Program-made: the position numbers and the translations under genes
The notes under the pieces: generated by a model
Seen by the model: only the letters and a program-made list of their open reading frames with translations
Told to the model about the DNA's origin: nothing
The model's database searches: none
From: Candidatus Baldrarchaeota archaeon
Lineage (GTDB): Archaea; Asgardarchaeota; Baldrarchaeia; Baldrarchaeales; DXJG01
NCBI GenBank assembly: GCA_019056805.1
Contig: DXJG01000001.1
Location: 90,001-122,000, forward strand
Reading direction: 5' to 3'
DNA: 32,000 bases
In this document: piece after piece, positions 19,612 to 28,880 of the stretch
How positions within the stretch are numbered: position 1 is the stretch's first letter
Layout of the letters: every line of letters starts with the position of its first letter

Positions 19612-21042
19612 TTATTGTTTTTCTCCAAAAACTTCCTGTTTCCAGATTTTTTCTAGGAACTGTTTAATATCTGCGGAGTCTCGGGGACCTACGAAGACTC
19701 TCCAGTCTTTTAAAAGATCTTCTAGTTCTCCACTAAGTCGTGCTGCATATCCAGGAATTATGACAGTTTTATGTTGTACTTTTTCCATCGCGCCCGAAGA
19801 AACCATGGTTTCATAAATATTCTCTGCTGTTAACTTCTTACCTGCTACTGCTGACTGTACACTGGTCCCCTCGGTATCAACAACCACCAGCCATGCATCT
19901 ATCTTGTTTCTTTCAACATCATCCTTAACAATGTAATATGTTAAGGCAAAGTTCGCGGTAACCAGCAGTGGTGACATCTCATTAGGTTTACCTATTTCAT
20001 ACAATCCAGGCTTTACTGATGGAGGAACTCTGGGATCTGTATATACACAATCTCTCCATACTATTACTGGTAAAATCGGCCAAACATCAATGGAATGAAG
20101 TATAAGGATATCGGCATACCTTGACATTAGTGAAGATGCGACTATAGATTCCATAAGCCTTTTTTCATCATCATTTCCATCAAAGAGCGACCATACAGCT
20201 GCTGGAACTCCAAGCAAAGGATAGCCGACATCAGAGTCTTCTCCCTCTATTGCAGCATACCTTAAAACACTGAACATACTGATGGTGTCTAAAATAGTTC
20301 CTCCATCAACAAAAGTCCCTGGATCAAGTACAAAGTCGTCAAGGTTATAGTATTTTTTAATCGATACCGTTAAGGATTTTAGGAGTGAAAGATCTCCAGG
20401 GGCTGATACCACTAGTGGACATTTGTATTTCGAGGAAAGTTCTGCCATTTCTTTCCAGTTTTGTTTATTAGCAGCATAAATAAGAGGTTTTTTATCACCA
20501 GCTATTGTTAAAGCTTCCTCAAGAACAGTAGGATTGTAAGAGCATAAAACCAGAGGAAGTTGAGTGTGCTTTAATACAGTGGAGACGGCGGTTGAAAACT
20601 TTTTCGAATCATCGGATACACATCTTACAGCGATCCCATCAAGTTTAAGTTCCCTTCCAATTCTGATGAAACTAAAGTCATTTACAAATTTTACTCTCTT
20701 AATTAACTCTTCTTCTTCCATTTCATCATGAACATCAATCATTAATGCCGTGGGATGTCGCCAAGTGAGCTCATGCCTGTACATTACATCTTTTCCGCCA
20801 ATAGTTATAGCATTGGGTGGAATTCCTATTGTAACTTCTTTGACAGGAGATCTTAAAACTTCTAGAAGCGCCTTTAATTTTTTACCGTACTTTGGTTCAG
20901 ATAGGGGAGTACACTTTTCAACGCTTACTTGTCTTTCAATAAGTTTTGCAGCAAAAGCCATACAACTACTTTCACCGCATTCGCCACAATTTGTTTGAGG
21001 GAGGTATTTGTATACATCAAGAGGTCTCAAAATTTTTGGCAT
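19612..21042 (-). CDS. cdhE: ACDS complex gamma subunit (corrinoid Fe-S protein, large subunit)
   Basis: LPQTNCGECGESSCMAFA...KCTPL Fe-S motif; YTDPRVP; TANFALTY; IIPGYAA; VGPRDS. Confidence 0.96.
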   Translation of the reverse strand: MPKILRPLDVYKYLPQTNCGECGESSCMAFAAKLIERQVSVEKCTPLSEPKYGKKLKALLEVLRSPVKEVTIGIPPNAITIGGKDVMYRHELTWRHPTALMIDVHDEMEEEELIKRVKFVNDFSFIRIGRELKLDGIAVRCVSDDSKKFSTAVSTVLKHTQLPLVLCSYNPTVLEEALTIAGDKKPLIYAANKQNWKEMAELSSKYKCPLVVSAPGDLSLLKSLTVSIKKYYNLDDFVLDPGTFVDGGTILDTISMFSVLRYAAIEGEDSDVGYPLLGVPAAVWSLFDGNDDEKRLMESIVASSLMSRYADILILHSIDVWPILPVIVWRDCVYTDPRVPPSVKPGLYEIGKPNEMSPLLVTANFALTYYIVKDDVERNKIDAWLVVVDTEGTSVQSAVAGKKLTAENIYETMVSSGAMEKVQHKTVIIPGYAARLSGELEDLLKDWRVFVGPRDSADIKQFLEKIWKQEVFGEKQ

Positions 21043-21053
21043 GCTTAATCCTC

Positions 21054-22367
21054 CTAATACTTGGCTTCAACCCATTTTTCATAGGGAATTTCGCTTAACG
21101 GTTTTCTAACCTTTTGCAACGCTTCAGCAAATGTCTTAGCAATTTTCATTGCAAGTGGATGCATCATCATGAAGAGGTCAGCTCCAGCCAACATACAAAC
21201 GATAGCAGTAGTAGCTTCCCACAATGGGCCTCTAAGTTCTCTTGGTCCCCACTCTTCGACTTTCATCCATGCTTCTCTAGCAGCCCAAGCATTAGTAGCA
21301 GCACAACTCATAGGTACTTGAAGAATTTCTTCCCCCATTAAGGCTGCAAGTCTGATACGTTCCATGACGCTGAAGGAGTATTCTATACCGTAACCTAAGG
21401 CTCCAGTTGTAGGATCGAGAATCAGTTGATTTTTGGGTAATCCAGCTTCAAGAATTTTTCTTGAAAGTTCTTTTGCTTGGTTTATATCCATGAAAGCTAA
21501 TGCAATAGCATTTTGTCCATGCTTCACTAGAGGTTCAACAGCTTTTGGAATATCCATATCCAATGTAATAGAAGCAAATACCAGCTTTTCCCCTTCCGTA
21601 GCTTTTGCAATTTCACGAAAGATGTCAATATCCTTCTCAGGATTCCCAGAACCACCAACTATAATCGGTTCATCAATAGCTTGTAGTACATCTTCCACGG
21701 TTCTTCTTGCTTCACTAGGAGGTGTGTCTTTGATACCGGGGTCTGTACTTACAAGATGAACAGAAACTAAGTCAGCTTTATATGTTTCTATGCATTTCTT
21801 AGCCCATGCAACTGGATCTTCTAGTACGTCAGCATAAGAACGCTTAACCGGACCAGCTAATGTTGGCCGCATATCAAATACGTCTAATGCAAATAAGGGT
21901 CGATTAATCGATGTTTCCTGAAATAGGAACATAGGAGGAGTGGAATAACCTCCAAGTTTATATGTAACGCCTCTAGAACCTCCTTCGCTCTTTGTAGCTC
22001 CAAGTTGAACTTCAGCAATCTTGCTTGTGTAAGGTAATTGTGGATACTTAAAAGGTATCGACAAAAGTTCAACAACTTTTGGTGGCGCTGGAGCAGCCGG
22101 AGTTACAGGTGGCACTCCTAAAACTCGCAAACCTTGTGGAGAAGCTTCAACAAGAAACTCTATTTTTCCTGTCGCTCCTGGCATAACTGGCTCCAGAGAT
22201 AATTTAAATAATTCTGGTCTTCCTGGAGCAGCTGCTGGTACAATTTCAATCGCAAATTCCTCCGCATCTATCGTTACATCCTCTAACTCTACGTTATCAG
22301 TTTCAGAAAGTAGTTTCAAAAGGTCAATTACTATTTTTTCATTTTCTTCCTTTTTTTCTTCCTTCAT
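21054..22367 (-). CDS. cdhD: ACDS complex delta subunit (corrinoid Fe-S protein, small subunit)
   Basis: EVQLGATKSEGGSR, IIVGGSGNPEKD, DPTTGALGYGIEY, AWAAREAW, GADLFMMMHP; GGAGG SD 7 nt before the ATG. Confidence 0.96.
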   Translation of the reverse strand: MKEEKKEENEKIVIDLLKLLSETDNVELEDVTIDAEEFAIEIVPAAAPGRPELFKLSLEPVMPGATGKIEFLVEASPQGLRVLGVPPVTPAAPAPPKVVELLSIPFKYPQLPYTSKIAEVQLGATKSEGGSRGVTYKLGGYSTPPMFLFQETSINRPLFALDVFDMRPTLAGPVKRSYADVLEDPVAWAKKCIETYKADLVSVHLVSTDPGIKDTPPSEARRTVEDVLQAIDEPIIVGGSGNPEKDIDIFREIAKATEGEKLVFASITLDMDIPKAVEPLVKHGQNAIALAFMDINQAKELSRKILEAGLPKNQLILDPTTGALGYGIEYSFSVMERIRLAALMGEEILQVPMSCAATNAWAAREAWMKVEEWGPRELRGPLWEATTAIVCMLAGADLFMMMHPLAMKIAKTFAEALQKVRKPLSEIPYEKWVEAKY

Positions 22368-22506
22368 GGGAGGCCTCCAGAGGCTTTATTATAACCTTTT
22401 CTGCTTGAATCTCCACTCCTTCTAATTCTAAAGTTACATTTTGCTGCAAAATTTTTGACAGAAATGAAACAATGTCAATTTCCTTTGATTTATTGGATGA
22501 AGTCAC
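22339..22506 (-). CDS. Unannotated 55-aa microprotein homologous to the CdhD N-terminal module
   Basis: GTG 22506 to TGA 22339 gives MTSSNKSKEIDIVSFLSKILQQNVTLELEGVEIQAEKVIIKPLEASHEGRKKGRK. Gap-free 15/40 identity to CdhD residues 1-40; fills the 145-bp cdhC-cdhD gap; purine-rich GAGGGGAAGTGA upstream. Confidence 0.75.
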   Translation of the reverse strand: MTSSNKSKEIDIVSFLSKILQQNVTLELEGVEIQAEKVIIKPLEASHEGRKKGRK

Positions 22507-22512
22507 TGTGAA

Positions 22513-23946
22513 TCACTTCCCCTCGGTTTTCTTAATTATAACCTTGTTTATGTGAATTTTTGCGCCCTTTAGAATTATCTTTATCCCACCAGCTGGAACA
22601 GCTTGGCCAGCAACAGGAAGAGCTGTGGGCAATGATACTTGTGGAATACCTATAGTTGTGGGTTGTTCAGGTACAGCGGCAGCTTCTTCAGCAGCTGCTT
22701 CTTCAGCAGCTGCAGCTTCCATTTCACGGATTTTCTCAGCTACTGGATGGTTTTTCTCAAGCAGGAACTTTTTCAACTCTTCTATATTAGTTGCGTCTTT
22801 TTCTGTCGCTATTTTGTCTACCAATTCTTCCGGTATAGCATCCTTTACTCGCATTTTTAGTTCTTCAGGCATCCATACAACTCTATTCCAACCGCCATCA
22901 GCATAGAAGAACTTTCTAGATCGCATATACTCGATTCCTATTCCCAAGAATCCTTCTGTTTGTATTCCACCACCCGTTTGAGCTGCCATAGATGAGAATG
23001 GTAATCCGTTTACAGCCTCTCCTCTGAAACCTCGATGTACAATTCCTATACCATCAACTTCTGGTATATAGAAAGCTATACATTCAAAGCATCCGCACGA
23101 TGTATGAGGATATTCAAACATACTGTAAAGGTAAACTCTTTTTACTGATCCAAGTGATCGTTGTGCAACTACTTCGTTTATACCACTCCATTCACCTTTA
23201 ACAGGGTCTAAACATTCACCTTTTGGAATTGGAAAGTTTGGTCCCTTTGGATCTATATTAGCTGAAGCTCTTGCGTCAAGCCAGGTTAGAGAACCGCAAA
23301 GCGATATTCTTTCCGGCGTGATTACACAAACATGCGTTGGTGCAAACGATTGACAAAGTACACAACCGTAGAACATATCAACTTCTTCGTCTTTTAGTCC
23401 TCTAACTCGGGCATCTCTGGCTTCATATACCTGCATTGCTTCTTCAAATTTCTTGGCTACCTCATCTGGATCTGTTATAAAGGTTACCTGCATTTTTTCT
23501 ATGTAGGGCATTTCAGCTTTGAATAGTTTAATTAGTGCCATACCCCACCATTTTAGAGAATCTAGACCCTTCTTTACAGATTTTTTAGCGATTCTTATCC
23601 AGATATCGTATCTCTGGTTTAAGTGCATTATACCTTCGATGTAGTTTGTGTACATGTGGATACGTCGTTCAACGACTCCTTCGAGATCTGTTTCAAGTTT
23701 TGGTCCTGCAATTTCTATAAGTATGCCTAGTGGGTAGCTTCCCCCTTCTTTTAAATCTTTTAAATCTGGTCCAATGATTTGTACTTTTTCATCCTCTACT
23801 TCATCCATAGACCTTACTCGTACAAGTTCAAATTTGTGTTCTACTTTTGGTCCGCCAAATTCAAGGTACATATCATCTCTTCTTATTCTTTGCCCTTCAA
23901 AAGCTGGACTTATTTCAATAGGGAAACCAGCAAATGCTGATGACAT
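22513..23946 (-). CDS. cdhC: ACDS complex beta subunit (acetyl-CoA synthase)
   Basis: FEGQRIRR, FYGCVLCQSFAPTHVC, RISLCG and HTSCGCFE A-cluster motifs; C-terminal Ala/Glu linker. Confidence 0.97.
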   Translation of the reverse strand: MSSAFAGFPIEISPAFEGQRIRRDDMYLEFGGPKVEHKFELVRVRSMDEVEDEKVQIIGPDLKDLKEGGSYPLGILIEIAGPKLETDLEGVVERRIHMYTNYIEGIMHLNQRYDIWIRIAKKSVKKGLDSLKWWGMALIKLFKAEMPYIEKMQVTFITDPDEVAKKFEEAMQVYEARDARVRGLKDEEVDMFYGCVLCQSFAPTHVCVITPERISLCGSLTWLDARASANIDPKGPNFPIPKGECLDPVKGEWSGINEVVAQRSLGSVKRVYLYSMFEYPHTSCGCFECIAFYIPEVDGIGIVHRGFRGEAVNGLPFSSMAAQTGGGIQTEGFLGIGIEYMRSRKFFYADGGWNRVVWMPEELKMRVKDAIPEELVDKIATEKDATNIEELKKFLLEKNHPVAEKIREMEAAAAEEAAAEEAAAVPEQPTTIGIPQVSLPTALPVAGQAVPAGGIKIILKGAKIHINKVIIKKTEGK

Positions 23947-23957
23947 TTTTTACCCTC

Positions 23958-24503
23958 CTAATCTTTTTTCTTTTCTTCTTTTAGAGTTTTCATTAAAATG
24001 TTAAGATTTTCAATCCAATCTTTCTCAGACAAATTCTGGAATGACCATGTAGCGTTAGGGTGATAATATCTGTCAAGAGATAGAGTTCTTATTTGTGGCG
24101 CAAAGTTCTTTAAACATGAAAGCAATTGTGATTGCAATTGATACGTGATTCCAACATATACCACTATGTCATGTGGTTTTGAACCATCAAGACTCCATTC
24201 AGGGTCTCTTAACCTATCGGTGATTTCTATAGCACCCATCGATAATGCGGGTTCTACGCCACGTTCTAAAAAGGCACTTAATGTGCTAGAAGTAGCGACA
24301 ATGGGAATTTTAGCGACCTCAGCAATTTCAATAACATAGTCTAAGAGGAGTTTCTCTCCAACTTTAACCTTTAAAGCTTCTGCTCCAACTATTATTAATG
24401 GATTTTTAGCCTTTTTTAACAGTTTTCCCGCTACTTCCCCAGTTAGTTTTAAAGCCGTTTTTGGTCCTGGAACATTACCCAACTGCCAAGGAGTAATGGA
24501 CAT
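23958..24503 (-). CDS. cdhB: ACDS complex epsilon subunit
   Basis: PWQLGNVPGPK, KKAKNPLIIVG, DRLRDPEW, and LDRYYHPNATWSF; operon position. Confidence 0.93.
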   Translation of the reverse strand: MSITPWQLGNVPGPKTALKLTGEVAGKLLKKAKNPLIIVGAEALKVKVGEKLLLDYVIEIAEVAKIPIVATSSTLSAFLERGVEPALSMGAIEITDRLRDPEWSLDGSKPHDIVVYVGITYQLQSQLLSCLKNFAPQIRTLSLDRYYHPNATWSFQNLSEKDWIENLNILMKTLKEEKKKD

Positions 24504-24516
24504 AGTTGTTCACCCC

Positions 24517-26877
24517 CTACTTTTTAACCCTTATTAAACGTTCTAGTAGGGTTGGGTCAACCACGGGTTTTTCCCAAGGTTCCCAGCCAACTTCTTTCAG
24601 ATATTCCATAATTTCTCCTTTGAAAGTAATAGGAATATCAGCCTCTGTTCGAATGAACATGTGCAGATCATCTGGTAGTCGCCTGTAATATTTCTTATAT
24701 AACTCAACATAGTGAGTCAATTTTATCATTCTACCCTTAGTTGTATCATTTGGTCTTAGACAAAGTTTAGCAGTCATAACAATAGCCTCTTCGCGAGTCT
24801 CGGCTACATAAACTAAATGTTCAGGTGCGGGACCAACCCAAACTCTATCACCAGTTCTTGCATCGTATACTGTGAAACTTTCTCTATCCTCCCTCCGACC
24901 GAGATACAATCGTCTATATTTAGCACCCTGAGGACCAACAATTACAGGTACGCCAAGTCTATTAAAGCCAGTAGCTATCGATGCAGCTTTTTGTGACATG
25001 GCACCCCAAGCAACTCCACAAGCACCAACCCTATTCAAAACATAATCCGCAATTTCTTCATAATTGGCCCTTAATGGACGCCTTGCGAAGATATTAGCTA
25101 TTTTGATGGCCGCACCAGCTATGTGAGCATTAGCTACACATGATCCAACATTTACAAGCCCCCCAGCATCGAAAGCCCCAGAATATTCCTCATACAATGT
25201 TTTTCCTTCTTCCGTTCTATACATGGCTATGCTCATAGCTGAACAGCCTGAAACCGTAACAATGAATCTTCTTCTTAAGAATTCTTCAGCCATTATTGCA
25301 ACGTCACGTCCACCTTCGGGGTAATTAGCACATCCAACATAAGCTACTACACCTGGAATTTCACCAAAAACTATTGGTGAACCAACTTCTCTAATTTCAG
25401 TATCAAGAATAGGGCCTCTACCTACCCTTATCTTGTATCGCTCCGTCTTTATTTTTAATTCAGCAGCACTTACGATTAAGCTATGAATTGGAATATCCCT
25501 TGGACATTCACTTTCACAACGAGCACAACCCAAACAATAATCATAAAGTTCTGCTAATTTATCGAAATTACCTTGTCTTGCAGCAAATACCGCTTCATCT
25601 GTTGGTAGATCGATCGGGCAATTTCTTCTACACCTACCACATTTCGTACATTTCTCTGCTACTTTCTTTAAGTCAGCTTTGTCAGGTAAGGACTTAAACT
25701 TCTTTCTAATAGGTGCAATTCTCAATGCGGTTAATACTGCTACAGCTCCAGCCTTTTCTAAATCAAGTATCAAAACACCAGGGTATTTTCCAGAAACCAA
25801 TGCGTCAACTATTTCCTCTACGGGTTTATTAGTCATATCGGGTAATCCATGACATGCTTTATCGGATGTAGCGATGACAGGTGTTTTTACACGCTGAGCT
25901 TCTGAAAGAACCATTATATGAATACATTGTTCATCAAGAATTAGCACATCAGCAGCTCCAGACCTAATGAAGCGAATTTGATGTGAAATTGGACCAACTA
26001 TCTTAGCTTGTTCATCATACCGCGTTAAGTCATGAGCGGTACAACATAATCCTAGAACTTCTATTGTCTCTCCAGGTCTTCCAAGACCATTCTTTTTCAT
26101 AAAATCTATTATTTCTACACCACTGGAGACGTTATGACCTATACAAAGAATCACGGGTTTTGTCGTGTCAGCAAGCCCCATACCAACTTCCGTCAATGGG
26201 GCGTCAGGTTTTCCTTTTGGAAAATTATATGTAATTATTTGAGCTACATCTGCAACTTCCATTGCTAAGTGATCTAACATACCTAGATGAAGACTCTTTG
26301 ACTCAAAATCTAAATAACTACCTTCTTGCCCTGTATGTGCTGCAGCCAGTGTCTGGACAATCTGTTCTTCTACATATTTTAATATGTAAGAGAGATCTCC
26401 AAGTGTTTTTGGTTTAATTCCTGTGATCAGTCTGCTTATTGGCATTTCAACATAGATGTCCGACCCTAGGTCTATTGGCCAGTTTTCACCATATTTTTCA
26501 ATTAGATGATCTACTAGGTGTCTTGCATGACTCGTGTGTGTTGAAGCCCCTATGGCACATGCTATTAATACTATTCGTCCTTGTTGAGCGCCTATGTCAA
26601 GTCCGCATGCTCCCCTCTTACCAGCGGTTAAATCACATTTTCCATAAGTGCAAAGGCAACATAAATCGCAAAAGGGCATATAAAAAGGCCTATAACGTTT
26701 TAATAATTTCATATCCCATTCTCTAAGAGTGGTTATTTTTGGCATAGGTGTAGGTCCCATAGGTTCCCATTCTTCTTCCATAGCAAGACGGCCAATAGCA
26801 ATTTCAATATCTTCAAGTGAAATTCCACTACCTTTAAGAGATTTTACCGAGAATTTTATTGGTCCCTTTTCAACCAC
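24517..26877 (-). CDS. cdhA: ACDS complex alpha subunit (archaeal Ni-CO dehydrogenase)
   Basis: CDLCCLCTYGKC, CIGHN, LCCTAHD, DEQC, two internal CxxCxxCxxxCP ferredoxin motifs, VGCAN, VGSCVANAH. Confidence 0.97.
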   Translation of the reverse strand: MVEKGPIKFSVKSLKGSGISLEDIEIAIGRLAMEEEWEPMGPTPMPKITTLREWDMKLLKRYRPFYMPFCDLCCLCTYGKCDLTAGKRGACGLDIGAQQGRIVLIACAIGASTHTSHARHLVDHLIEKYGENWPIDLGSDIYVEMPISRLITGIKPKTLGDLSYILKYVEEQIVQTLAAAHTGQEGSYLDFESKSLHLGMLDHLAMEVADVAQIITYNFPKGKPDAPLTEVGMGLADTTKPVILCIGHNVSSGVEIIDFMKKNGLGRPGETIEVLGLCCTAHDLTRYDEQAKIVGPISHQIRFIRSGAADVLILDEQCIHIMVLSEAQRVKTPVIATSDKACHGLPDMTNKPVEEIVDALVSGKYPGVLILDLEKAGAVAVLTALRIAPIRKKFKSLPDKADLKKVAEKCTKCGRCRRNCPIDLPTDEAVFAARQGNFDKLAELYDYCLGCARCESECPRDIPIHSLIVSAAELKIKTERYKIRVGRGPILDTEIREVGSPIVFGEIPGVVAYVGCANYPEGGRDVAIMAEEFLRRRFIVTVSGCSAMSIAMYRTEEGKTLYEEYSGAFDAGGLVNVGSCVANAHIAGAAIKIANIFARRPLRANYEEIADYVLNRVGACGVAWGAMSQKAASIATGFNRLGVPVIVGPQGAKYRRLYLGRREDRESFTVYDARTGDRVWVGPAPEHLVYVAETREEAIVMTAKLCLRPNDTTKGRMIKLTHYVELYKKYYRRLPDDLHMFIRTEADIPITFKGEIMEYLKEVGWEPWEKPVVDPTLLERLIRVKK

Positions 26878-27146
26878 AGCTTGTCACCTTCGGGTGCTGT
26901 TCACTAAGATATTTTAAAGTCTACTTTTAAGTTTATTGATGTAAAATACTTAAGAATAAGTTAATCTTTCAAATAATAAGAAAGTTAAATTTTGTAAACC
27001 TAATTTTTGTATTAAGTTTCTTAGGTTACGAAATTCATTCCGTATTCAAAATTATTTTTGATTAAAATAGTTGTTCATTATTTTTCTATTGAAGTGAAGC
27101 TATATTCCTAAAATCAAGATTATATGCTTTCTAAACTCTATTCAAA

Positions 27147-27935
27147 TTATAATAAAGATTTTTTCAATAATTCTACTGCTTTAATTGCTGGCGAAGATGG
27201 AACATAGTCGATGGGGGCTTTCTTTATCATATCAGCATAAGCAATTTGTTTATCAAAAGGTATGACAGCAAGCAGCGATATCTGATGTTTTTCCAATTCT
27301 TCTTTTACAAAACGTTCTTCTTCACTTGTTGATATCTTATTAGCCACAACAGCAAATTTACGAATCCCAATATCTAATGCTAACTTCTTTATACGGCAAG
27401 CAGTCTCAATGGATTTAAAACTTGGCTCAACAACAGCTAGCATTATGTCCACGTTCCTAGCGGTTCCACGCCCAAGATGTTCTATACCAGCTTCCATATC
27501 AAGGATAACAAACTCATCTCTATCAACAACTAAATATCTAAGTAAATTCCTAAGAAAAGCATGGGCTGGACAAAGACATCCTGTTCCTCCATTTCGAACG
27601 GTTCCCATAACTAAAAGCATAACTCCATCAGGACCTCTAACTCCGAACCGATCAACAATATCATCGACCTTGGGGAACAAATTAAATGCTCCACCAAGTG
27701 GAAGGCCAGGAATTTTCGTTCGTTCCTCTATAAGTTCTCTATTGACTGCAAGAGGAACTATTCTCGATATTTCTTCTTTTCTTAACCCTATCGTATAAGC
27801 AAGATTTGTATTTGGATCGGCATCTACCGCTAATACCTTATAACCATCCCTAGCTAGAATCCTAGCCAAAGTTCCAGCAATGAAAGTCTTACCAACTCCG
27901 CCTTTACCAGTAATAGCTAGTTTCACACCTTTCAC
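27147..27935 (-). CDS. cooC: CooC-family nickel-insertion ATPase, CooC1-like
   Basis: GKGGVGKT, DADPN, GGTGCLCP, DMEAGIEHLGRGT. Confidence 0.92.
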   Translation of the reverse strand: MKGVKLAITGKGGVGKTFIAGTLARILARDGYKVLAVDADPNTNLAYTIGLRKEEISRIVPLAVNRELIEERTKIPGLPLGGAFNLFPKVDDIVDRFGVRGPDGVMLLVMGTVRNGGTGCLCPAHAFLRNLLRYLVVDRDEFVILDMEAGIEHLGRGTARNVDIMLAVVEPSFKSIETACRIKKLALDIGIRKFAVVANKISTSEEERFVKEELEKHQISLLAVIPFDKQIAYADMIKKAPIDYVPSSPAIKAVELLKKSLL

Positions 27936-27950
27936 CTTTTAAATCTTAAA

Positions 27951-28880
27951 TTACCGTTCCGACAATATTTTACGTAGAGGGGACTGATCAAGATCTCTGG
28001 AACTTAAATGCAAATTTAAACCTAGTTCTTTTCTAGGATCTAAACCAAAAGCTAAACCAATCAGTTGAGAAATGTGAACTACTGGAATCTGCACATCTAT
28101 TTCCTCAAAAGATAACATTTCAAACTGAATTTTATCTATGGCACGCAAACAACTAGGACACATAACTAAAATAAGGTCAGGTTCTTCTTCAAATATGCTT
28201 AATATTTTTCTTCTAGCAAGTTCAAAAGATAAATTCCTTATAGACCTTAATGCAGGTTCTCCGCAACAAAGGTCTTTCTCTTCATAATCTATTGATGTTC
28301 CACCCAATGTTGATACTATTTCGTCTAAAAATTTGGGGTGTTCACTACTATCTAAGACTTTATTTTGGTGCGAATATAAGTAATGACATCCATAATGCAC
28401 TGCTATTCTTAAATCATCTAAAGGCCGCTCCACTAGTTCAGATATTTTTTGTCTCATTTTATAAAATAATTCAGCTACGTGAAAACAATTAACGTTTTGG
28501 GGGAAAGTAAAACCAATAGCATTAAGCGCACTTTCAATAATTTTCATACTTTCACCATTATTTTTAATGTTCTCCAGTGCGGAATTGATACTTGAATAAC
28601 AACCGTTACACACCGTTAAAACATTTTCATATCTATCTTGAGTTTCAGCTAGAATTCGCCCCACAATGGTATACATAGTATTTGAAGAAAGAATTCCCGC
28701 GAGAAACAGGGGAAGGCCGCAACATAAAACTTCTTCGGGTACGTAAACATTATACCCTAATTTAGACAGAACTTTTATTGTTGATGTTTCGATGCCAGGA
28801 TAAATATTAACCGATAAGCAACCTGGATATAAAAAAAGATCACCTTCTTCAGGTATCTTCTTTAGTTTTTCTACATTCAT
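27951..28880 (-). CDS. hdrB: Heterodisulfide reductase subunit B-like (two CCG domains)
   Basis: YPGC...CCG...CNGC and HYGCH...CCG...CPSC; C-terminal HISQLIGLAFG. Confidence 0.9.
   Translation of the reverse strand: MNVEKLKKIPEEGDLFLYPGCLSVNIYPGIETSTIKVLSKLGYNVYVPEEVLCCGLPLFLAGILSSNTMYTIVGRILAETQDRYENVLTVCNGCYSSINSALENIKNNGESMKIIESALNAIGFTFPQNVNCFHVAELFYKMRQKISELVERPLDDLRIAVHYGCHYLYSHQNKVLDSSEHPKFLDEIVSTLGGTSIDYEEKDLCCGEPALRSIRNLSFELARRKILSIFEEEPDLILVMCPSCLRAIDKIQFEMLSFEEIDVQIPVVHISQLIGLAFGLDPRKELGLNLHLSSRDLDQSPLRKILSER

What the first reader, a model, noticed from the sequence alone, without database searches (positions are those of the whole stretch)
22339..22506. Hidden 55-aa microprotein in the cdh operon is a free-standing copy of the CdhD N-terminal module
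Seen in the sequence and below the ORF-track cutoff. MTSSNKSKEIDIVSFLSKILQQNVTLELEGVEIQAEKVII aligns without gaps from Met1 to CdhD MKEEKKEENEKIVIDLLKLLSETDNVELEDVTIDAEEFAI, with 15/40 identities (I12 V13 L16 K18 L20 E27 L28 E29 V31 I33 A35 E36 I40, plus M1 and K6). It starts 6 nt after the cdhC stop, in the same frame, and overlaps the cdhD start by 29 nt. cdhD keeps its own GGAGG SD. Established: ACDS is described as five subunits. Inference: an undescribed sixth component consisting only of the docking module, acting as a scaffold filler or as a competitive regulator of supercomplex size or stoichiometry. Alternative products are a UGA read-through CdhC with two modules, or a +1 slip at the A7 run (22351-22357) giving a CdhD with two modules.
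Basis: partly seen in the sequence, partly recalled or inferred. Interest (0 to 1): 0.85.

Follow-up and report, generated by a model that had tools for sequence, protein, structure and literature searches.

The report
Free-standing CdhD docking module gene
A real, conserved 39-55-residue gene sits between cdhC and cdhD in some archaeal acetyl-CoA synthase operons; it is a body-less copy of the short N-terminal "docking" piece of CdhD, so it is probably an undescribed small extra part of the complex.

Summary
A 55-codon ORF (22339-22506, minus strand, GTG start) lies 6 nt after the cdhC stop and overlaps cdhD by 29 nt. It is homologous to CdhD residues ~10-40 (BLASTP E 1e-5; profile-profile 96%, E 2.8e-9). 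It is not an assembly artefact: three other assemblies are identical across the A7 run and the TGA.

It belongs to a gene family always found between cdhC and cdhD, in four subtypes: Ca. Methanomethylicia, Bathyarchaeia, other Thermoproteota, and this genome. At least 9 of 96 cdhD-bearing Thermoproteota genomes sampled carry it. Purifying selection is strong (dN/dS 0.03-0.29; synonymous excess p 7e-4 to 3e-7). Each copy has its own start codon and tight coupling (ATGA, TAATG overlaps).

The frame relative to cdhC and cdhD varies between relatives, and the A7 run is not conserved. The read-through and +1-slip products are therefore not supported.

Relatives are annotated only as "hypothetical protein". 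There is no Pfam, NCBIfam or PDB match, and I found no paper describing it. The scan found the same kind of micro-ORF before on other DNA (e1-2485957, a Bathyarchaeia clade).

Its role in the ACDS hub is inferred from homology, operon position and Zimmer et al. 2026. It is not shown.

The parts
22339..22506 (-). Small ORF: 55 codons plus TGA, GTG start. A free-standing paralogue of the CdhD N-terminal module.
   Evidence: Orthologue P0005 on L015. Family members.
22384..22482 (-). Conserved core, residues 9-41: an amphipathic helix (about 12-21) followed by the motif NVxLELEGVEIxAEKhIIK.
   Evidence: Family alignment A6. AF2 gives a helix at 12-21, with pLDDT about 77 over residues 11-40. Only synonymous changes against L015 in codons 11-46.
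22339..22383 (-). Non-conserved C-terminal tail, residues 42-55. Its last 29 nt overlap the cdhD start.
   Evidence: The tail differs in length and sequence in every relative. The overlap is visible.
22513..22524 (-). SD-like GAGGGGAAGTGA. It includes the cdhC TGA stop and lies 6 nt upstream of the GTG start.
   Evidence: Same pattern and spacing as cdhA (GAAGGTGA + 6 nt + GTG) and cdhB (GGGGGTGA + 6 nt + ATG). The 20 nt around it are identical in L015.
22513..23946 (-). cdhC (477 aa). Its C-terminal hairpin GGIKIILKGAKIHINKVIIKK is encoded at about 22531-22593.
21054..22367 (-). cdhD (437 aa). Its N-terminal module is residues 10-40, at 22248-22340.
22374..22378 (-). cdhD's own GGAGG Shine-Dalgarno, inside codons 43-45 of the small ORF.
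22351..22357 (-). A7 run in the overlap. It is not conserved and is not a recoding site.
   Evidence: L015 has AAAAAGAGAAAG here with no indel. Independent contigs are identical.
24517..26877 (-). cdhA (786 aa, GTG start). Its N-terminal stretch GISLEDIEIAIGRLAM is loosely motif-like.
   Evidence: The similarity to the small-ORF family is not significant (hhalign E 0.3).

Best explanation
The ORF is a bona fide small protein gene, a member of an unnamed family of 39-55 residues that is always inserted between cdhC and cdhD. It arose by duplication of the extreme N-terminal module of CdhD: an amphipathic helix plus a two-strand motif hxLE[DNG]VxIxAE. In three of the four subtypes the last strand has become basic (AEKhIhK), like the terminal strand of CdhC. 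It is translated from its own start codon and is tightly coupled to cdhC and cdhD, so it is probably made in roughly subunit amounts. [quoted passage not shown] 2026). The free module would occupy a docking position in that hub as a small sixth structural subunit. It has the docking piece but no catalytic body. Shown: the gene is real, conserved, selected, homologous to the CdhD N-terminus, and confined to the operon. Inferred: that it binds the hub, and its stoichiometry. My odds: real coding gene about 0.93; homologue of the CdhD N-module about 0.9; physically part of or acting on the ACDS hub about 0.55-0.6.
For: - Same ORF in the same place in the closest relative, L015. There are 8 synonymous and 3 non-synonymous differences in codons 1-46, and all 3 non-synonymous changes lie in codons 2-10. 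Binomial p 7e-4.
- The family is found by profile search. Members of 44 and 39 aa in Ca. Methanomethylicia and Bathyarchaeia-like contigs are each called as a gene between cdhC and cdhD, one of them on more than 20 contigs.
- More members occur in a 401-genome Thermoproteota sample: G400, G401, G520, G491, G523, G656, G674, G728 and G799, out of 96 genomes with cdhD.
- dN/dS is 0.03-0.06 (Methanomethylicia type), 0.06 (window type), 0.18-0.29 (Bathyarchaeia type) and 0.20 (GC-rich type), with synonymous sites often saturated.
- Translation signals are present: ATGA overlap with the cdhC stop, TAATG or GTG..TGA overlaps with the cdhD start, TTG or GTG starts 2-6 nt after the cdhC stop, and an SD-like element with the operon's usual 6-nt spacing.
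- Homology: hhalign against CdhD N-termini 96%, E 2.8e-9; against CdhC C-termini 73%, E 3e-5.
- Context from the literature: the CdhD N-terminal region scaffolds ACDS; the CdhA N-terminus and CdhC C-terminus are conserved, disordered, crosslinked to each other (E15-K452) and proposed to bind the CdhD region. The first ~42 CdhD residues were not tested.
- The ORF co-occurs with a CdhD subfamily whose N-region does not align to the first 39-57 positions of TIGR00381. All 9 interpretable operons of that kind have it. Eleven operons with ordinary CdhD have cdhC and cdhD directly adjacent.
Against: - There is no direct evidence of the peptide or of binding.
- The module is only about 35 conserved residues, and AF2 gives just a helix plus an extended chain at moderate confidence.
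- Most archaeal cdh operons lack the gene. That includes Nezhaarchaeota, the same-genus genomes and 400 genomes of the window's own phylum. It is therefore dispensable for ACDS in general.
- The four subtypes differ in the charge of the last strand, and one Bathyarchaeia copy (L023) has no ATG, GTG or TTG before the helix.
- A single origin of the four subtypes is not established.
Confidence: 0.6

Rival explanations
1. It is a competitive cap or regulator. The body-less module competes with the CdhD N-terminus or the CdhC tail for the same docking site. That would limit the valency or size of the supercomplex, or release ACS or CODH, rather than serve as a stoichiometric structural part.
For: It carries the docking motif without any catalytic body. 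Its last strand mimics that of CdhC. The gene is present in only a minority of operons, as expected for a modulator.
Against: Constitutive placement inside the operon with ATGA or TAATG coupling argues for fixed, subunit-like expression rather than regulated dosing. No regulatory signals were seen.
Confidence: 0.2
2. It is a transient assembly factor that shields or templates the sticky CdhD N-terminal or CdhC C-terminal strands during folding, and is absent from the mature complex.
For: It is encoded exactly between the two partners whose termini it resembles and is translated just before CdhD. AF2 suggests it is not a stable fold on its own.
Against: No chaperone-like features. Nothing separates this reading from a stable subunit.
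Confidence: 0.1
3. It is a recoding product. UGA read-through would extend CdhC by this module, or a +1 slip at the A7 run would fuse it to CdhD.
For: In the window and in L015 the ORF is in frame with cdhC behind a TGA. In L016 it happens to be in frame with cdhD behind a TAA.
Against: In Methanomethylicia, Bathyarchaeia and the other window-type loci the ORF is out of frame with cdhC. Its frame relative to cdhD varies. The A7 run is absent from L015. Every copy but one has its own start codon and SD. No CdhC or CdhD with two tandem modules was seen in about 110 operons.
Confidence: 0.03
4. It is a non-functional duplication remnant, or a coupling uORF whose peptide does not matter.
For: It is short, and its tail overlaps the cdhD ribosome-binding site, so translating it would open the cdhD start.
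Against: The amino-acid sequence is kept while synonymous sites are saturated, across four subtypes. The alternative frames are full of stops.
Confidence: 0.05

Closest known systems
N-terminal conserved region of archaeal CdhD (CoFeSP small subunit), the ACDS scaffold region of Zimmer et al., bioRxiv 10.64898/2026.07.07.736967
   Same: Homologous to residues ~10-40 of CdhD: the same amphipathic helix followed by hxLE[DN]VxIxAE. Same operon.
   Different: Free-standing, with no linker, coiled-coil or TIM-barrel body (PF03599). The last strand is basic instead of acidic in three of four subtypes. The tested oligomerising element of M. acetivorans CdhD is residues 45-68, not this first module.
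C-terminal tail of archaeal CdhC (residues ~401-470 in M. acetivorans)
   Same: Shares the terminal strand K-h-I-I-K and the G/N turn. hhalign 73%, E 3e-5.
   Different: Lacks the Pro/Ala-rich linker and the GG-IKI-L first strand. It has an N-terminal helix that CdhC tails lack.
Earlier scan findings: the micro-ORF between cdhC and cdhD in a Bathyarchaeia clade (e1-2485957), and detached CdhC tails as separate genes (e1-3949094)
   Same: The same phenomenon: ACDS terminal docking pieces encoded as separate tiny genes inside the operon.
   Different: The window copy belongs to another subtype (GTG/TTG start, NVxLELEGVEI core, overlap with cdhD). It sits in a genome of a different phylum from the Thermoproteota carriers.
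The gene between cdhC and cdhD in Methanosarcina cdh operons, a CooC-type Ni-insertion ATPase (from my own knowledge)
   Same: Same position in the operon.
   Different: That gene encodes a P-loop ATPase of about 250 aa. This ORF has 55 aa and no CbiA/ParA match. In this window cooC lies upstream of cdhA.

Membership tests
CdhD N-terminal module (archaeal CdhD residues ~10-40) | Significant sequence homology to CdhD N-termini | tested here: met
   BLASTP E 1e-5. hhalign 96%, E 2.8e-9 over 32 columns.
CdhD N-terminal module (archaeal CdhD residues ~10-40) | Amphipathic helix followed by the hxLE[DN]VxIxAE motif | tested here: met
   Alignments. AF2 helix at 12-21.
CdhD N-terminal module (archaeal CdhD residues ~10-40) | Covalently attached to the CdhD TIM-barrel body (PF03599 / TIGR00381) | tested here: not met
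   Separate ORF with its own start and stop in 20+ loci. No Pfam or NCBIfam hit.
CdhC C-terminal tail | Pro/Ala-rich linker followed by the GG[IV][KR]I.L.GAKI.I.KLIIKK hairpin at the C-terminus of CdhC | tested here: inconclusive
   Only the last strand matches clearly (8/14). hhalign 73%, E 3e-5. There is no linker.
ACDS complex subunit | Encoded in the cdh operon and co-translated with the other subunits | tested here: met
   Always between cdhC and cdhD, with ATGA or TAATG overlaps.
ACDS complex subunit | Co-purifies with CdhABCDE | not testable with these tools
   Needs biochemistry or proteomics. The M. acetivorans work used an organism of a group in which this ORF was not found here.
Programmed recoding (stop read-through or +1 frameshift) | Conserved frame relation and conserved slippery or read-through context | tested here: not met
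   Frames vary. The A7 run is absent from L015.
CooC-type accessory ATPase between cdhC and cdhD (Methanosarcina) | P-loop NTPase domain of about 250 aa | tested here: not met
   55 aa, no CbiA/ParA hit.

The most novel reading that the evidence does not exclude
In a subset of archaea, ACDS is a six-subunit enzyme. The small protein would be a stoichiometric hub subunit whose helix-plus-hairpin joins the CdhA, CdhC and CdhD termini in an inter-subunit beta-assembly. This assembly would replace or supplement the CdhD coiled-coil scaffold described for Methanosarcina. That would explain why the ORF co-occurs only with CdhD variants that have a divergent N-terminal region.
Probability: 0.3. Interest if true: 0.75.

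Novelty: new variant of a known kind. Interest (0 to 1): 0.62.

Why it matters
[quoted passage not shown] The latest model (Zimmer et al. 2026) assigns tethering to the conserved, disordered termini of CdhA, CdhC and CdhD, but states that biochemical data on them are lacking.

A naturally free-standing, selected copy of one of these termini is a ready-made probe. It can be expressed alone, tagged, titrated or deleted to test whether and where the termini dock.

If it is a true subunit, the textbook five-subunit composition is incomplete for Methanomethylicia, Bathyarchaeia and related lineages. It also shows that genes under 60 codons inside core metabolic operons are still left as "hypothetical" or uncalled.

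Tried and rejected
- **Complex prediction:** CdhA 1-50, CdhC 428-477, CdhD 1-60 and the small protein, each with its own alignment. Score 0.20 against a mark of 0.32, so no verdict. This is not evidence either way.
- **AF2 of the small protein:** pLDDT 68. **AF2 of CdhD 1-110:** pLDDT 57, a weakly predicted beta-rich region. Both are too uncertain for fold searches, so none were run.
- **Single-chain fold of the L016 ORF read through its TAA into CdhD (P0016):** planned but not run. MAFFT placed the CdhD modules onto the small-ORF part of the alignment (A7), which made it unusable.
- **phmmer against 1.84 billion representatives:** returned only the query and a repetitive 1561-aa protein (P0007). 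I judge that hit to be chance, because repeats inflate the score.
- **Word-index search with CdhD 1-110:** one hit only.
- **PDB profile search and ESM Atlas:** nothing usable.
- **Sequencing runs:** no RNA holder listed, so expression was not assessed.
- **Small open frames hit in the window's own phylum (L071, L072, L077, L080):** they are not in a cdh context and were rejected as chance.
- **G533 junction:** masked by N. **G536:** its cdhD is not next to cdhC. Both are uninformative.
- **Tandem duplication across the cdhC/cdhD junction as the origin** (CdhD 1-36 fused to the KVIIK tail of CdhC): this fits the window type and the Methanomethylicia type but not the Bathyarchaeia type. It cannot be tested at the DNA level because synonymous sites are saturated. 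I keep it only as an idea.

Full report
**1. Observation**

The cdh operon lies on the minus strand:
- cdhA 24517-26877
- cdhB 23958-24503
- cdhC 22513-23946 (477 aa)
- small ORF 22339-22506 (55 codons)
- cdhD 21054-22367 (437 aa)
- cdhE 19612-21042

CdhC and CdhD are both full length against their NCBIfam models. Neither gene is therefore truncated by the small ORF.

The ORF starts with GTG, 6 nt after the cdhC TGA and in the same frame. It ends 29 nt inside cdhD.

The similarity to the CdhD N-terminus is ungapped and significant. BLASTP gives 16/41 identities, E 1e-5. Family profile against family profile gives 96%, E 2.8e-9. A weaker similarity to the CdhC C-terminal strand also holds: KVIIK is shared, 8/14 identities, and hhalign gives 73%, E 3e-5. 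Similarity to the CdhA N-terminus is not significant.

**2. Not an artefact**

Logan contigs of three runs cover 22117-22692 with no substitution or indel. All three are flagged as possible sources of this DNA, so they are not fully independent.

A diverged orthologous contig, L015, carries a 55-codon ORF (85% aa identity) in the same position and frame layout. The A7 run there is replaced by AAAAAGAGAAAG without an indel.

**3. A conserved gene family**

Reading the cdhC-cdhD junctions of the nearest CdhD relatives revealed homologous small ORFs in two Ca. Methanomethylicia MAGs and one Bathyarchaeia MAG. Five Nezhaarchaeota loci had none.

A profile search then returned gene-called proteins of 44 and 39 aa. 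Two are named "hypothetical protein" by NCBI. Their contigs all show the order cdhA-cdhB-cdhC-small-cdhD-cdhE.

I scanned a 401-genome sample of the phylum of the Methanomethylicia MAG. Of these, 96 have cdhD above the TIGR00381 cut-off. At least nine carry the ORF.

Four subtypes emerge (alignment A6):
- **Window type:** NYVVELEGVEIxAxKMII core, with TTG or GTG starts.
- **Methanomethylicia type:** 39-44 aa.
- **Bathyarchaeia type:** 39-40 aa.
- **GC-rich type:** an acidic last strand.

In 400 genomes of the window's own phylum, only the window genome has it. The other hits there are CdhD N-termini, CdhC C-termini or chance.

**4. It is translated as its own protein**

Pairwise Nei-Gojobori estimates give dN/dS of 0.03-0.06 within the Methanomethylicia type, 0.06 within the window type, and 0.18-0.29 and 0.20 in the other two. 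For window against L015 the value is 0.25, or 0.11 outside the overlap with cdhD. Synonymous sites are often saturated. The excess of synonymous changes is significant in every pair tested, p 3e-7 to 3e-3. The other two frames of the same DNA are full of stops.

Signals fit independent, coupled translation:
- ATGA overlap with the cdhC stop (Methanomethylicia type).
- TTG or GTG starts 2-6 nt after the cdhC stop (window type).
- A stop next to, or overlapping, the cdhD start (TAATG, GTG..TGA).

In the window, the element GAAGTGA followed by 6 nt and GTG mirrors cdhA (GAAGGTGA, 6 nt, GTG) and cdhB (GGGGGTGA, 6 nt, ATG).

**5. Recoding alternatives**

The in-frame relation to cdhC is peculiar to the window and L015. 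In all other subtypes the ORF is out of frame with cdhC. Its frame relative to cdhD varies from locus to locus. No slippery run is conserved. No CdhC or CdhD with two tandem modules was seen. Read-through and +1 slippage are therefore not supported.

**6. What it is**

The conserved core is residues 9-41: a helix (AF2 12-21) and the two-strand motif. The tail, residues 42-55, is not conserved and simply runs into cdhD.

The helix and first strand resemble CdhD. The last strand, AEK-h-I-h-K, resembles the CdhC end and is basic, whereas the CdhD strand is acidic (AEE-h-x-h-E).

Small ORFs of the Methanomethylicia and Bathyarchaeia types are as close or closer to ordinary (Nezhaarchaeota-type) CdhD N-termini than to their own neighbouring CdhD. 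This points to an old duplication. Whether there was one origin or several is unresolved.

The ORF co-occurs with CdhD proteins whose N-region fails to align with the first 39-57 positions of TIGR00381. All nine interpretable operons of that kind have it. Eleven operons with ordinary CdhD have cdhC and cdhD directly adjacent. In the window and Methanomethylicia types, that CdhD region holds a conserved beta-rich insert (PExxKLxLEP...KxEFLVExxPxGxR).

**7. How it probably works (inference)**

Zimmer et al. (bioRxiv 10.64898/2026.07.07.736967) report the following for M. acetivorans ACDS:
- The complex is organised around oligomers of CoFeSP, formed by the CdhD N-terminal region. The coiled coil at residues 45-68 was tested.
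- CODH points its N-terminal disordered region to the centre.
- The CdhA N-terminus and the CdhC tail crosslink (E15-K452).
- These conserved termini are proposed, without biochemical data, to bind the CdhD region and keep CODH and ACS attached.

The small protein is a body-less copy of the part of CdhD upstream of that coiled coil. It is produced between CdhC and CdhD. The most economical reading is that it takes a place in this hub as a small extra subunit. A competitive cap and a transient assembly factor are the main rivals. None of these is tested. The complex prediction gave no verdict.

**8. Known or new**

There is no Pfam or NCBIfam family, no PDB relative and no Atlas cluster. No paper in the held library mentions a small protein in this position.

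The scan itself has seen the same phenomenon before. One note describes a Bathyarchaeia micro-ORF (e1-2485957). Another describes detached CdhC tails in a third genome (e1-3949094). I found the Bathyarchaeia-type copies before reading those notes.

It is a new variant of a known element: a docking terminus made free-standing. It is not a new kind of system.

**9. Side observation**

The window's CdhA is 76% and 72% identical to those of two Thermoproteota carriers, but only 62% to the same-genus genome. CdhD is 63-64% against 47-49%, and the adjacent HdrB-like protein shows the same bias. The hdr-cdh block, with its small ORF, was either laterally acquired or the contig is mis-binned.

Noticed in passing
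window 19612-28880 (hdrB-like, cooC, cdhABC-small-DE): This block is closer to Thermoproteota genomes than to the window's own genus. CdhA is 76% identical to G674 and 72% to G400, against 62% for same-genus G001. CdhD is 63-64% against 47-49%. The HdrB-like protein is 46% against 35%. Either the block was laterally transferred or the contig is mis-binned.
   Followed up: partly
window 22038-22247 (CdhD residues 41-110); also L016, L020, L083, L099, L110, L122: The CdhD proteins next to window-type and Methanomethylicia-type small ORFs share a conserved beta-rich insert (PExxKLxLEP...KxEFLVExxPxGxR). It sits where Nezhaarchaeota-type CdhD has a helical stretch, and where M. acetivorans CdhD has its coiled coil by the paper's numbering. 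TIGR00381 does not align to it.
   Followed up: partly
L023:2765-2905: The Bathyarchaeia-type small ORF in this MAG is conserved in sequence but has no ATG, GTG or TTG upstream of the helix. It may use an unusual start, carry an assembly error, or be decaying.
   Followed up: no
window 22368-22378: The cdhD ribosome-binding site GGAGG is part of a perfect 10-nt palindrome, GGAGGCCTCC, directly before the ATG and inside the small ORF. It may play a role in coupling cdhD translation to the small ORF.
   Followed up: no
window 26875-26877 and 22504-22506: cdhA and the small ORF both start with GTG, each preceded by a GGTGA-like SD at 6-nt spacing. cdhB, cdhC, cdhD and cdhE use ATG.
   Followed up: yes
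L114 (G533:C3:12900-14900): The cdhC-cdhD junction of this genome is masked by a run of N, which creates an apparent 774-aa open frame. It cannot be used to judge presence of the small ORF.
   Followed up: yes
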